From NCBI GenBank assembly GCA_050084515.1, contig CM114271.1, positions 40,052,001 to 40,116,000 on the forward strand: DNA of 64,000 bases, in the 5' to 3' direction. The notes under the pieces are model-generated. The model had not been told where the DNA came from and did not search any database. It was given only the letters and a program-made list of their open reading frames with translations. This document shows, in pieces, positions 39,814 to 59,729 of this stretch. The translations under genes were made by a program, and so were the position numbers. Position 1 is the first letter of the stretch; each line of letters starts with the position of its first letter. Source of the stretch: Blasia pusilla. Lineage: Eukaryota.

Positions 39814-42800
39814 AAAGCACCAGAGCAAGATCTTAGCAATACTGTCATGCGCATATACATCGCTACACAACATACATCATTGTCATCGGACACACACACA
39901 AACACACACGATCCCATGCTAACTCATGGCATCCATACACAGAGGCGAGAAGTACCAAAATATCTCCAATTAAAGTAAGATCCAATCTCTCTCTACACCA
40001 TCTCACACCATAGCTCTCAAAGGTCTGCACTCTCTCTCATGTCAAACCAAACCTACTCTCCCAATGAGAGGCTTGGGTTACACTCACAAGGCAAGGGATC
40101 AAAGCTCTGCCGCCTTATGCCAAGAGGTTCAACAAAGAAAGAATGAGCTCTCAAGCTCTCTCTCTTGGAGGTATACCCCCTTCCCTCTCCCAAGCCCTCT
40201 CAACGGTAACCTATGCTCGCACTTCACCTCCTTGGCTCTTGACCTATTGAAGCGGGTCAAGGGCCACTTCCAAAAGTAGAAATTCAACTATCCCCAATAT
40301 GGAAACTTACCCACAATAGTAAGTTTCTCTATATGGCTCCAAATGAGCCGAAACGAAGGGAAAACCTGCTCTCTCAGGCTTCTCGGGTCCTCAACAGGTC
40401 ATCCTCGACCTCCTGGGCGTGTCCTCCACTACTCGTGCAGACACTCTGCTAGATCCCACTGATCTATCCTAACAGTCGTGACAACTATTGTGCGCATACA
40501 CATCGTTGTCATTTAACACACACAGAAACACACACGATCCCATGCTAACTCATGGCATCCATACACAAAGGCGAGAAGTACGAAAATATCTCCAATCGCC
40601 CCCCTAGGTGATGGTTAGGTCTCTCTAACTCCAGATAGCCATCTATCCCTACCTACCACGACATACATCTTTAGGACGCTAAGCGCAGAAAGGCCGCGTG
40701 CTGATGTGGCCCCATCGTTAGTCGCCTTCATATCATCCATGTCACAGAAAAAGTCGGAATCGAAACCTCCGTAGTATCTCCTCTATGTACATCTAGGACA
40801 CATCCATCGTCCCCGAGGAACCCTTATGAGAGGTGGCGTCAGACATGCCATATGCCAACCTCTCGAACATCCATCACACACTAGCATCGTGGCCGTACCA
40901 AGAGCAGAACCACACAAATACAACGCAAGCGTGCAGGAACTAATGCTGAACTCGGATCTACTGTACCATCAATGTTAGGAAGGTGACATGGCGCATAATT
41001 ACGCACATGGTCCTTCCATACCATACCATCACGTCCCTCTAGCAAGAGAACACCGGATGGCAAAACGTCACACACTCTCAGGATAGTGCGCCCTGCAGTC
41101 ATATCCAACGTCGTCGTTATTGTCTGCTGCAAGTAGACATAATCTCCTTGATGAAACCTCCGGATAGTTGGTCGATAACCACCACCCCAAATAGTCGCAT
41201 ACCTTAACGTATCCTTATGCTACGCAATCGCCTAGTTCTCGAATGCCATGGGCATCACTCTCCGAAATAACTCAGCCCTCTGAGAACATGCTCGCATCCA
41301 TACATCTTGGTCATCAAGGTCCTGCACCTCACCAAAATCTCAATAAATGGCCGTAGATAAATCTTGATCTCGGCCATAAAGTAGCAAGTACGGTGAAAAA
41401 GATGCTAAGGATGCCTACATGTTGAATCTGTATCCCATAGCCAACCACGGCAACTTGAGGTCCCAATCTCCTAGGTGACCTCTCTGCAAGCCATTCTTGC
41501 GTAAACCCCTCTTCACCGTCTGCACAACTCTCTCTCCGCTAATCCATCCGCCTCAGGATGATCTCGCGAAGTCGTGCGGTGGTCGATCAACGCATGATCA
41601 CGCAAGGCTTGGAACTCACCGCAAAACTTGGTACCGTGGTCCTTTCAACACCTCAGCCGGTGCGCCATAATGACTCAGCACTCTGTGAAGGAAGGAATAA
41701 GCTACTCCCTCACTCGCTTTGTCAGGAAATGCAACCAACTCGATCCATTTCGAGAAGTGCTCGACCATCACCAACACATAACGACTGTGACGCTCCGTCA
41801 AAGGCAAAGGTCCTGCAAAATCCATACTCCATCTTTACCCTAGGCCGATGATCGGTAATGGATGCAACTGTGGAGTCGGAGCATTGAACGATGCTCGGAC
41901 CTTATCACACACCATGCACTTGGCAACAAACTGTTGAACGTTAGTCTGCATGCCTCACCACCAATACTAAATCTGGAGCAAGCTGTACGTCCGCTTCACC
42001 CCAAAGTGACCCAACTCCTTGTGGGCATGCTGCACTAGTCGTGCTCTCTGCAAAGGATGTGGCACAACGCATACTCTACCATCCTCCCAAACCCTCAAAA
42101 CATGTGTCCCCTCCCAACGGAACCGTCTGACCCGCTGTAGGATCCAATCCTGCTCTCTAGCACCCACGATGCTCGCAACGCTTCTAGTACGAAGGTACTT
42201 CAAGATTACTCCATCATCATGAATATCTCGGCCACCTGTCGTCTCCTCACTAGCCTCGAGATCCAAGGACTCTCCACTAGACCTCGCCATCAAAGTCTCC
42301 ACACTCTGGCTCTCCATAGCCTACATGCCTAAATAGGTTGACGCGTGCCATCTTGGCAGTGACTCCTCATCACTCTCTCCATGCCATCGAGCTCTAGTCG
42401 CATCTTGCTGACTCGCGCATGGGTTACAACTCAACCCATCTGCATCCTGGTTGAGCATCCCAGGTCTATGTACCACCATAAAATCATACTCCCTGCGACA
42501 ACAGAGCCCATCTCGCAAGCTTGCATGTAAGCTTGTCGGACTCCATCAACCACTTCAGTGGTTGATGATCAGTGATGATGGTAAAGGGGTTGCTGAATAA
42601 GTAACCTAAAATGCGCGATGACCCACACAGGAGCCAAGCACTCACCCTCATACAAGCTGTACTTCATCCCTGCAGCGTTTTTTGAGCAGCTAGCGTTAGC
42701 CACCACAAACTCTCTACCCTCATCATCATGTTGGGTGCGTACCGCTCGAAGCCCCAACATGCTCCAATCTGTATGCATTTGGAAAGGACGCCCCCTGCTC

Positions 42801-57299: not shown

Positions 57300-59729
57300 G
57301 TGGCTATGGGAGCTTGCTCACTCAACCACAACTTTGTGCTCCAAACTCAAAATTATGCACTGTTTCTTTAGCAACGTACACAACTTCTTGATCTATAACT
57401 TTTTCAATTGGTTTCTCAATTTGATCTTCCACCAAAGACTGACGGGAACTGTCGTGCAACCCAACGTCTGTTTCTCCTCTGCAAAATTTGGCAACGCATC
57501 TTTGCTGATTTCTCCCAACAAAAATGTAAAACATGTGAAAACACAAATCAAAGAGCTACATGGTACTCCCGAAAGCACCGGCATGTTGCAACCCGCCCCC
57601 ATACTCAATCTCTAAAGAAATTTGGGTAGCACTTCCGCTAGCCACTCTTCCACACAAAAAATCGGCAAAGGAAACAACCTCAACAAGCCCTCTTGCTCCA
57701 GTGAGCACTCTAATGAACCCCTGAATGGGGAATACATTCCCCAACTTGCAACAACAACGAGTGACAAGGGAGCTCCCCCATTGAAACTCTCTCACTCACT
57801 CATTCTCTATGTAAAATCAATCACATCTCTTACAAGGTCTTACACCAAGCTCTCTATGGTGTGCTCTCTCTCTCTCTCTCTCTCTCTCTCTCTCTCTCTC
57901 TCTCTCTCTCTCTCTCTCTCTCTCTCTCTCTCTCTCTCTCTCTCTCTCTCTCTCTCTCTCTCTCTCTCTCTCTCTCTCTCTCTCTCTCTCTCTCTCTCTC
58001 TCATGTCAAACCAAACCCACTCTCCTAATTAGAGGCTTGGGTTACACACACAAGGCAAGGAGGACCATAGCTCCGTTGTCGTATCGAGAGCCTTTCTTCG
58101 AGTAAGGGTGGACCTTCTAGCTACTACAGACGTGGTTGATGCAAGTCAAACTCTATAATAATTTCTCCTTTTCAACACAAAATTATTATGTAAACCCTCA
58201 ATTATCTCACGACAGAAATCACGAAAGGTAGTATCAAGGCGATCACTTCTTCATAACATGGTACCCCGAAATTCCTAACTATGAAGTCTCTGTAAACTAC
58301 TTCACGTTTCTACACAAGGAAAGTAACACAACTAGTGTTAAACCCTACTTGAGCAGGCCTATTGACGTCCATGGATAGCTATATAAGGACATACAAAGTG
58401 AAATCCCATGTCCTTCCGTAGGTGACTATAGGAAGAATCACCGGAGGTGGAGATTGCATGACTTGGTTCATGAACGCGTCCCCAAAGTGATAAACTAGAT
58501 AGCAAGTCAACTAGTGCCTATCTACAAAGAGAATCTTGACGTGGTACGGGTTAAGGAAAGGAAAATCCGGCACAACTCGTGCTCCATCCCTATCCATACT
58601 TGACAAACATCATATACTCTCCTCTAGAATGGGATTTGGCGGAATTGCTCTCCCAAGAAAGATAATCCACTCTCTTTGGGAAAATAACAAGCCAAACCAT
58701 CTTCTATTTCTAGTATGACTAAACTCATCTAAGGCAACAAGTCTCTCATCTCCACATATATCACACTCTAGAAACCTCTGGAAGAATAGACCAAGGTCAA
58801 GTTACTCTCCCAAGAGGGATAATCCACTCTCATTGGAAGAGCAAGCAATCTCAAAGCCATACACTCAAGAGTGACACGAGAGACTCGAGATGTGAAGTAG
58901 ACGGTGATGAACCCTTGAAGGTCTCTCCTCTTTATATACTCACAAGGGATCCACAAGAGTACCAAATAGAGCTAATCTTATCTTGTGCCATATAGCTTCC
59001 TCTCAAAACTTACCCAATCACATTTTGACACAAGTAGATTTCCTCTTATCTCTTCCAAAATATCCTCTTTTACCCACTTGATATTTTCCAAATTTCCCCA
59101 ACTACCCTAGCCACCAACCAAGACTACTTTTGCTTTTCATTAAAGTACCAACCTCATTACTTTACTTTTATAAAGTCATCTTTTATTTATTACCTCTTTT
59201 CCTAAAGTTGGGCCCGTATAAAAGAGGCACCATAAAGAAGTTTAAACATGGGAATTTCATTTTCCTAAGCTAATTTATTTAATACTAATAAAAATATATC
59301 TAACACTTAATGAGGAAGGAGTTTACAGACTGGATGATTTTACTATACGACACGGCCGCCTCATGCCAAGAGGTTCAACAAAGAGAGAATGAGCTCTCAA
59401 GCTCTCTCTCTTGGAGGTATACACCCTTCCCTCTCCCAAGCCCTCTCCTCGCTAACCTATATTCGCAGGTCATCTCCTTGGCTCTTGACGTGTTGTATCG
59501 AATCAAGGACCCTTTCCCAAAGTGAAAAATCAACTATATCAAAATTGGTAACTTACTCGAAATAGTAAGTTCCGCAATATGGCTCCAAATGAGCCAAAAT
59601 GAAGGGGAAACCTACTCTCTCAGGTTACCCGTGGCCTTAGCAAGTCATCATCGAACTCCTGCGGCTGTCCTCCAATATCTCCAAAGTCGCTCTACTAGAT
59701 CTGGCCGATCTATCCTAAAAGACATGACG
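57300..59729 (-). mobile_element. 5' remnant of a third family member (terminal repeat X plus leader), interrupted by a nested insertion
   Basis: 59353-59729 and 57813-58076 together match X. 57320-57610 matches the leader of copy 1 (49140-49450). Contains (CT)n at ~57864-58002. Confidence 0.8.
58077..59352. mobile_element. Nested ~1.28-kb insertion, probably a solo LTR of another family
   Basis: Ends TGTCGTAT...ATACGACA (8-bp inverted). It splits X at CTCCG/CCGCCTC, with a diverged 4-bp duplication (CCGT/CGGC). No coding signal. Confidence 0.7.

What the first reader, a model, noticed from the sequence alone, without database searches (positions are those of the whole stretch)
39843..59729. 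Integrase-encoding Gypsy family with split direct repeats (X-internal-Y-X-Y) and a built-in end-to-end junction
Copy 1 (minus): X 49999-49683, internal region, G-rich tract, Y 40596-40486, 2 nt, X 40483-39971, Y 39970-39843. Copy 2 (plus): G-rich tract, Y 55307-55434, 2 nt, X 55437-55947, Y 55948-56062. Copy 3 shows a 5' X diverging into the leader at the X/Y boundary (~57813), and I saw no tRNA PBS. The internal Y-X junction reads ATA-GT-TGT and ACA-AC-TAT, consistent with a deaminated ACA-GC-TGT, i.e. right end plus 2 nt plus left end, like a circle junction. Split direct repeats are the hallmark of tyrosine-recombinase PAT/Ngaro/TOC1 elements, yet this family has a DDE integrase, TG..CA ends and a 4-bp TSD. 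Inference: non-standard, perhaps tRNA-independent replication via a circular or permuted intermediate.
Basis: partly seen in the sequence, partly recalled or inferred. Interest (0 to 1): 0.78.

Follow-up and report, generated by a model that had tools for sequence, protein, structure and literature searches.

The report
Gypsy retrotransposon integrating through mid-LTR site
These are dead copies of an abundant methyltransferase-carrying Gypsy retrotransposon whose scrambled X…Y-X-Y end repeats likely arise because its DNA copy's two ends get joined and integrase then likely cuts a palindromic site inside the LTR, a route the textbooks treat as a dead end.

Summary
Observation confirmed. X-internal-Y-2nt-X-Y with a 4-bp TSD is the norm of a family with thousands of X copies in this genome, and of related families in other hosts. 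The element is a Ty3/Gypsy with protease, C5 DNA methyltransferase, RT, RNase H, DDE integrase and PHD, and no tyrosine recombinase. That is the KnitGypsy-Dnmt3 kind, whose DIRS-like repeat layout is already in a figure legend (PMC5890265), without a mechanism. Y-GC-X is fixed in length (27/27) and its palindromic core recurs in unrelated repeats. X|Y sits exactly between a Tf1-type self-primer site (16-nt complement inside X) and the G-tract. It differs copy to copy: 25 of 100 carry extra primer-site letters, 9 places carry PPT remnants, and the classes are scattered on the tree. X1/X2 and Y1/Y2 are homogenised within elements. Best reading: ordinary self-primed reverse transcription makes LTR = Y-GC-X; the cDNA ends are end-joined; integrase cuts an LTR-internal att site. 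Open points: circle first or cut first, and why only the left site is used. No cDNA or enzyme was observed.

The parts
39843..49999 (-). Copy 1, degenerate near-full-length element
   Evidence: 4-bp TSD GTAT at 50000-50003 and 39839-39842
49683..49999 (-). 5' X (first ~317 nt only; the rest of X and the primer-binding site are replaced by the GA run 49547-49682)
   Evidence: full X1 in other copies
46806..47476 (-). gag-like region (broken)
   Evidence: tblastn to Marchantia P0004
45721..46008 (-). aspartic protease remnant
   Evidence: weak Pfam Asp_protease_2 E 0.021; 51% to P0004
44114..45233 (-). C5 cytosine methyltransferase domain remnant (DLFGG, WPC, ENV, RPRLWW motifs; broken)
   Evidence: the window fragments give no Pfam hit alone; their homologues P0001/P0004 hit PF00145; 44-56% identity to P0004
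42493..43836 (-). reverse transcriptase and RNase H
   Evidence: PF00078, PF17919, PF17917
40920..42320 (-). DDE integrase (zinc finger, core)
   Evidence: PF17921, PF00665 (below the curated cut-offs in this decayed copy, above in copy 2's zinc finger and in relatives)
40786..40914 (-). C-terminal PHD finger
   Evidence: PF00628 E 1.7e-11
40597..40606 (-). G-tract (likely PPT) abutting Y1
40486..40596 (-). Y1 (inferred start of U3)
40479..40490 (-). internal Y-2nt-X site (deaminated form of the palindrome GACAGCTGTC seen intact in other copies); inferred integrase att site
39971..40483 (-). X2 (inferred rest of U3, R and U5)
40132..40147 (-). 16-nt self-primer site inside X, complementary to the first leader bases after X1
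39965..39976 (-). X|Y junction (here the +A form); inferred joint of the two cDNA ends
39843..39970 (-). Y2, ends ...GACA
50735..56062 (+). Copy 2, 5'-truncated: DNMT-RT-RH-IN-PHD, G-tract 55298-55306, Y1 55307-55434, AC, X2 55437-55947 (primer site 55775-55790), Y2 55948-56062
57324..59729 (-). Copy 3, 5' fragment: X1 59729-57813 (insertion 59354-58076; primer site 59393-59378), decayed primer-binding site 57812-57799, leader to ~57324

Best explanation
This is a Ty3/Gypsy element with DNA-methyltransferase and PHD domains whose reverse-transcription-defined LTR is likely Y-GC-X: the two ends of its linear cDNA would be joined by end-joining at X|Y, and integrase likely cuts and inserts at the palindromic CA-GC-TG site inside the left LTR, which would give the observed X-internal-Y-X-Y with a 4-bp TSD. 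Steps: (1) RNA likely starts in X1 near the 16-nt primer site (inferred; TSS not mapped). (2) It primes on itself at the complementary site right after X1 (complementarity shown; priming inferred by likeness to Tf1). (3) Plus strand starts at the G-tract right before Y1 (position shown; use inferred). (4) Standard strand transfers give [Y-GC-X]-internal-[Y-GC-X] (inferred; fits within-element homogenisation). (5) The X end and Y start are joined, often keeping primer-site or PPT letters (junction spectrum shown; the joining enzyme is unknown). (6) Integrase removes GC at the internal site and inserts both CA ends (ends and TSD shown; cleavage inferred). Whether joining comes before cutting (2-LTR circle) or after (host repair of the gap) is not decided by these data.
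For: Repeat borders coincide with primer positions. X ends where a 16-nt perfect complement of an X-internal site begins (7 of 13 full copies exact, the rest 7-14 nt; shuffles max 9). Y begins right after the G-tract. X|Y is remade per copy. Of the first 100 of 1,510 anchored junctions listed, 75 are blunt, 19 carry +A and 6 are longer; 24 of the 25 additions are prefixes of the primer-binding site (counted by hand). 26 places carry longer primer-site remnants, several in copies with internal sequence upstream. 9 places carry PPT remnants, one of them both kinds. Junction class is not clustered on a 54-copy tree (+A: 7 changes vs 7.7 shuffled), while 11 of 12 copies with a subfamily marker fall in one starred clade. 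Y-2nt-X keeps its length in 27 of 27 PHD-anchored copies. Paired repeats share rare variants within elements: X 65 vs permuted mean 25 (max 49), 3' of the primer 26 vs 5.9 (max 21); Y 84 vs 22 (max 38). No column differs in its commonest letter between X1/X2 or Y1/Y2. Related families with different repeat sequences keep the layout, the GACA-GC-TGTC core, the G-tract, a 4-bp TSD and their own different self-primer pair (L210, L214, L270, L205). Tf1 cDNA retains PBS (~50%) and PPT (~20%) DNA at its ends (PMC11042837, passages). Foamy-virus integrase cleaves palindromic LTR-LTR junctions (PMC1180852, abstract).
Against: A 2-LTR circle has two identical att sites, yet no clean X-Y-X-internal-Y copy was found: 0 of 14 and 0 of 25 left ends; of 40 scored hits to a Y-X-leader query, 5 had Y before X-leader and none was the clean form. 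The asymmetry is unexplained. 75% of junctions are blunt and precise, with few deletions, which is tidier than much host end-joining. Primer-site letters at X|Y could partly come from later recombination with the leader. The runs into reverse-complement X are mostly inversions or fold-backs at the 16-bp inverted repeat, so they do not prove RNA-primer copying. The primer:PBS helix was not in the minimum-energy fold of a 391-nt window and weakens in several copies when more flank is included. TSD was exact in only 6 of 13 full candidates. All copies studied in this genome are old (about 10% diverged).
Confidence: 0.76

Rival explanations
1. PAT/TOC1/Ngaro-like templating: the RNA runs from X1 through X2 into Y2, and both ends are rebuilt by template jumps onto the internal Y-GC-X junction, giving a linear or circular substrate for integrase; X|Y is simply inherited.
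For: Same A-B-A-B layout as tyrosine-recombinase elements (PMC4157794, passages). It needs no choice between two att sites. Some RNA reads span X|Y (depth 14-19 at 39970). Most junctions are identical.
Against: It predicts separately inherited X1/X2 and Y1/Y2 lineages; none were seen, and rare variants are shared within elements. It does not explain primer-site and PPT remnants at X|Y, their scatter on the tree, or why the self-primer site abuts X. The RNA reads come from old, diverged copies and may be read-through.
Confidence: 0.12
2. Tandem insertion or recombination products of an ordinary element with two X-Y LTRs.
For: X-Y has TG...CA ends and occurs solo with a TSD (e.g. L132, L143, L145; 4 of 30). 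Insertion into other copies is frequent.
Against: No X-Y-leader or PPT-X copy turned up in any sample. The TSD brackets X...Y-X-Y. The layout recurs in other hosts. Solo X-Y follows from X1 x X2 recombination.
Confidence: 0.02
3. The RT-defined LTR is Y-GC-X, but the permutation comes from cDNA multimers or integrase-independent recombination rather than from integrase cutting within one molecule.
For: Dimer-like and odd forms exist (L187, L190, L194; flank-Y-X-leader in L188, L189). Tf1 has such a pathway (PMC11042837).
Against: Precise TG...CA ends with loss of GC and a 4-bp TSD at unrelated flanks are integrase signatures. Y1 and Y2 share element-private variants, which fits one molecule or sibling molecules.
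Confidence: 0.1

Closest known systems
KnitGypsy-Dnmt3 of Klebsormidium nitens (de Mendoza et al. 2018, PMC5890265; I read section 9 whole, other passages and a supplement keyword search; the figure itself was not seen)
   Same: Gypsy pol with a Dnmt3-type methyltransferase; the legend says the repeat structure is that of a DIRS element (A-coding-B-A-B). A K. nitens RT (P0077) is 46% identical to copy 1.
   Different: In the parts read, the paper gives no priming, TSD, att-site or replication model, and reports the element for a charophyte. Here it is a very abundant family (5,978 exact matches to a 13-mer of X), with methyltransferase homologues in Marchantia, Calypogeia, Sphagnum and Closterium proteins. 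I did not see KnitGypsy's own repeats.
Tf1/sushi and plant Tcn1 self-priming chromoviruses (PMC4600332, PMC6317226, PMC11042837; passages)
   Same: PBS complementary to a site in the 5' LTR; primer-site DNA retained at cDNA ends.
   Different: Those have two whole terminal LTRs with att sites at the cDNA ends and usually a chromodomain; this one has a PHD, a DNMT and an internal att site. Phylogenetic placement against REXdb clades was not tested.
PAT/TOC1/Kangaroo, Ngaro, Viper tyrosine-recombinase retrotransposons (PMC4157794; passages)
   Same: A1-B1-A2-B2 split direct repeats.
   Different: No tyrosine recombinase here; DDE integrase, PPT, TG...CA ends and a 4-bp TSD. The layout likely has a different cause.
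Integrase cleavage of palindromic 2-LTR junctions in foamy virus (PMC1180852, abstract; HIV papers seen in a search listing only)
   Same: Integrase cuts an internal palindromic CA..TG junction.
   Different: There the palindrome is the joint of the cDNA ends and a side route. Here it would be templated inside U3 and obligatory, and the real end joint is a separate, tolerant site.

Membership tests
Ty3/Gypsy LTR retrotransposon | PR-RT-RH-IN order with DDE integrase | tested here: met
   intact relative L205 shows D, D, E motifs
Ty3/Gypsy LTR retrotransposon | two complete LTRs at the termini | tested here: not met
   X at left, Y-X-Y at right
Ty3/Gypsy LTR retrotransposon | TG...CA ends and short TSD | tested here: met
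   4-bp TSD exact in 6 of 13, one mismatch in 2 more, no 5-bp match; L210, L238, L255 exact, read by eye
KnitGypsy-Dnmt3 / streptophyte Gypsy-DNMT3 | C5 methyltransferase domain within the polyprotein | tested here: met
KnitGypsy-Dnmt3 / streptophyte Gypsy-DNMT3 | A-coding-B-A-B repeats | tested here: met
   against the legend
KnitGypsy-Dnmt3 / streptophyte Gypsy-DNMT3 | same RT and DNMT clade as the published element | tested here: inconclusive
   a K. nitens RT at 46% is not shown to be KnitGypsy; no tree with the published sequences was built
Tf1/sushi-type self-primed elements | PBS complementary to a 5' LTR site rather than to a tRNA 3' end | tested here: met
   leader starts ACAAAG, not TGG; the host tRNA set was not searched (none in window)
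Tf1/sushi-type self-primed elements | RNA 5' end at the primer and RNase H release of the primer | not testable with these tools
   RNA-seq showed no sharp start
DIRS order (PAT/TOC1/Ngaro) | tyrosine recombinase, no DDE integrase | tested here: not met
   no Pfam hit in 62 other-frame stretches of copies 1 and 2, nor a recombinase in six ORFs of intact relative L205; integrase present
Chromovirus clades (Tcn1, Chlamyvir) | placement in RT-RH-INT tree; chromodomain | not tested
   no reference set at hand; C-terminus is a PHD and Pfam found no chromodomain

The most novel reading that the evidence does not exclude
A whole streptophyte lineage of LTR retrotransposons has moved its integrase attachment site from the cDNA ends into the LTR, so that a 2-LTR circle closed by host end-joining is the obligatory integration precursor, with a DDE integrase acting on an internal palindrome like a site-specific recombinase on attP; this would free att-site precision from messy self-primer removal.
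Probability: 0.45. Interest if true: 0.88.

Novelty: new variant of a known kind. Interest (0 to 1): 0.7.

Why it matters
For retroviruses and LTR elements, linear cDNA is held to be the integration substrate and LTR circles dead ends; circle integration was proposed early and then set aside (recalled), and survives as a side route (PMC1180852). Here thousands of genomic copies each record a joined-end junction separate from the integration site, so the question becomes directly testable with eccDNA sequencing and an oligonucleotide cleavage assay. It also shows that split direct repeats do not diagnose tyrosine-recombinase elements. LTR finders that need two terminal LTRs (the criterion in PMC6317226) would likely miss or mis-annotate a major repeat of such genomes. 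The layout is in print; I found no mechanism for it in nine searches of an open-access library that lacks many subscription papers and Repbase reports.

Tried and rejected
(1) Short Y1 / long Y2 in about 19 of 30 junction-anchored copies looked like a heritable difference favouring the PAT-like model. It was ascertainment: in copies not picked by that query Y1 is mostly 128 nt (15 of 22) like Y2 (16 of 22). (2) Letters running from the PBS into reverse-complement X were first read as copies of the RNA primer and as a way to map the TSS. In 40 of 80 places examined only 6 join Y, most run far into X, and 20 followed up are inversions or head-to-head joins, so this was dropped as proof. (3) RNA-seq laid on 39700-41200 (three raw-read runs with the same species label, 6-12% of reads read) shows family transcripts, by first-mate direction likely sense, almost all under 95% alike to this copy, with no sharp start or end: uninformative on TSS and poly(A). 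No RNA holder was listed for the stretch itself. (4) The 3' ends of L188 and L189 (possible uncut linear cDNA) and the 5' ends of L106 and L121 (X-internal-Y candidates) were not recovered in the stretches fetched. (5) The single-copy RNA fold did not show the primer helix. (6) The RT search of cluster representatives was dominated by multi-domain chimeras; only a hand-picked 10 of 150 were looked up. (7) The spacer looks more deaminated (G>A 14 of 29, C>T 10 of 30) than other CWG sites in X (about 20%), but the comparison set is biased low, so nothing is concluded. Dropped rows: L101, L102 and L105 duplicate L001, L024 and L021 and were left out; L007 lacked a right end and was left out; L011, L019 and L024 lack a TSD, look chimeric and were kept.
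Full report
Observation. Self-comparison and direct reading confirm the three copies and all repeat coordinates. Copy 1 is bracketed by GTAT. Its 5' X is cut short by a private deletion; other copies have a full X1 of about 513 nt followed by the leader. 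The window lies in a 390-Mb eukaryotic assembly of 26 contigs; I did not identify the species, but named relatives are bryophyte and streptophyte-algal proteins. An exact 13-mer of X occurs 5,978 times and an anchored X|Y junction 1,510 times.

The layout is the norm. Junction-anchored loci are biased by design, so three other samples were used. PHD-anchored: 27 of 30 continue Y-2nt-X, 22 of 30 complete Y-X-Y, 2 end after Y and 1 is truncated. Leader-anchored: 25 of 30 show X starting at TGT-like letters on unrelated flank, none with Y next to X1. Position-ordered X loci: 15 X-leader (14 with intact start, none preceded by Y), 8 Y-X-Y, 4 solo X-Y, 3 rearranged or partial. TSDs are 4 bp: exact in 6 of 13 full candidates, one mismatch in 2.

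Coding capacity. Protease, RT, RNase H, integrase and a C-terminal PHD are present in decayed form. Between protease and RT lies a C5 methyltransferase remnant, identified through PF00145-positive homologues. No tyrosine recombinase was found in 62 other-frame stretches or in an intact relative. This matches KnitGypsy-Dnmt3, whose legend states DIRS-type repeats with Gypsy domains (PMC5890265; the figure image and most supplementary figures were not visible and may hold more).

Which junction is made anew? The first bases after X1 are the exact 16-nt complement of a site at X position about 330-347 in 7 of 13 copies; shuffles give at most 9. This is the Tf1 arrangement (PMC4600332, passages). 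Y1 starts right after a G-tract. So the X end and the Y start are where reverse transcription would put the cDNA ends, and X|Y joins exactly those two points. Of the first 100 listed junctions, 75 are blunt, 19 have +A and 6 have longer additions; all but one are prefixes of the primer-binding site (counted by hand; only contig 1 is listed). A targeted pattern found 26 longer primer-site remnants, several in copies with internal sequence upstream; another found 9 with PPT remnants, one with both. On a tree of 54 copies the classes are scattered (+A 7 changes vs 7.7 shuffled; starred branches force at least 4), though the tree is largely star-like; a subfamily marker does cluster (11 of 12 in one starred clade). 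By contrast Y-2nt-X never changed length in 27 unbiased copies, and its spacer is GC or a deamination product in 53 of 61. Tf1 cDNA is known to keep PBS and PPT DNA at its ends (PMC11042837, passages).

Template origin. If X2-Y2 were copied from the RNA as in a PAT-like scheme (model recalled), X1/X2 and Y1/Y2 should drift apart as lineages. They do not: no column differs in its commonest letter, and rare variants are shared within elements well above permutation (X 65 vs mean 25, max 49; 3' of the primer 26 vs 5.9, max 21; Y 84 vs 22, max 38). Post-insertion gene conversion could contribute and was not excluded.

Conservation. Of 80 metagenome loci with related pol, at least 10 show both repeat pairs in the X...Y-X-Y order, with X about 290-340 and Y about 170-185 nt of different sequence; many others are too short or show only one pair. 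They keep the G-tract before Y, the GACA-GC-TGTC core (32 motif matches, 12 GC and 18 deamination forms), 4-bp TSDs and a different self-complementary primer pair. Three further contigs (L204-L206) show the same core, and L205 has its own 16-nt pair. Predicted pairing is 0.82-0.98 in all 12 copies tested when the RNA starts at the primer and ends at the PBS, but drops in several with more flank, and one longer fold missed it.

Mechanism. Shown: layout, domain content, primer complementarity, junction spectrum, homogenisation, ends and TSD. Inferred: transcription from X1, self-priming, a linear [Y-GC-X]-internal-[Y-GC-X] cDNA, joining of its ends, and integrase cleavage at the left internal palindrome with loss of GC. 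Foamy-virus integrase can cut such palindromes (PMC1180852, abstract). The main weakness is symmetry: use of the right-hand site would give X-Y-X-internal-Y, which was not found in clean form. A possible reason, untested, is that the left LTR becomes double-stranded long before the right one, so integrase assembles there first. That would fit cutting before joining as well as a circle, so the two orders remain open (my split, given the core model: about 60:40 for circle first). The role of the methyltransferase and PHD in this cycle is unknown; self-methylation of cDNA was suggested for such elements (PMC5890265, abstract start in the search listing).

Standing. The family and layout are known; the mechanism was not found in nine literature searches. 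Two earlier AI reports of this scan on other genomes reach a similar reading (seen after my analysis, not independent support). Verdict: real feature, new variant of a known kind, interest 0.70; core model 0.76.

Noticed in passing
L188 (G000:C7:12467260) and L189 (G000:C7:29200652): Copies that begin with Y at unrelated flank and run Y-2nt-X-leader, like the left end of an uncut linear cDNA captured without integrase; 3' ends not recovered.
   Followed up: partly
L187/L119, L190, L194+L201: Odd forms: X2 followed by about 660 nt of leader and then Y; a PHD-Y-X-leader dimer; and a partial X|Y in front of a complete element.
   Followed up: partly
80 places in G000, e.g. L325, L331, L334: Inversions and head-to-head joins pivoting on the 16-bp primer/PBS inverted repeat; L334 has Y-X2 joined through the PBS to another X, as expected for annealing of a single-stranded PBS tail.
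   Followed up: partly
L205:976-8229: Intact relative: gag-protease-DNMT ORF and RT-RH-IN-PHD ORF separated by one in-frame TAG, which suggests readthrough.
   Followed up: no
P0005, P0221, P0233, P0237: Relatives in which the methyltransferase-like domain lies upstream of the integrase in proteins with no RT hit (in P0005 it follows an RNase H tail), which suggests a second domain order.
   Followed up: no
window 25861-26615 (+) and 26967-27093: A further methyltransferase-domain remnant and a weak (72%) match to X, outside the finding's span.
   Followed up: no
window 57875-58002 and 49547-49682: Long (GA)n expansions in 5' X copies of both copy 1 and copy 3, near the primer region or U5.
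   Followed up: no
window 2754-3680 (-): Another reverse transcriptase fragment (PF00078); ORFs of 200-500 aa at 9-18 kb and 31-36 kb have no Pfam hit.
   Followed up: no
window 58076-59354: 1.28-kb insertion inside copy 3's X1, unclassified.
   Followed up: no
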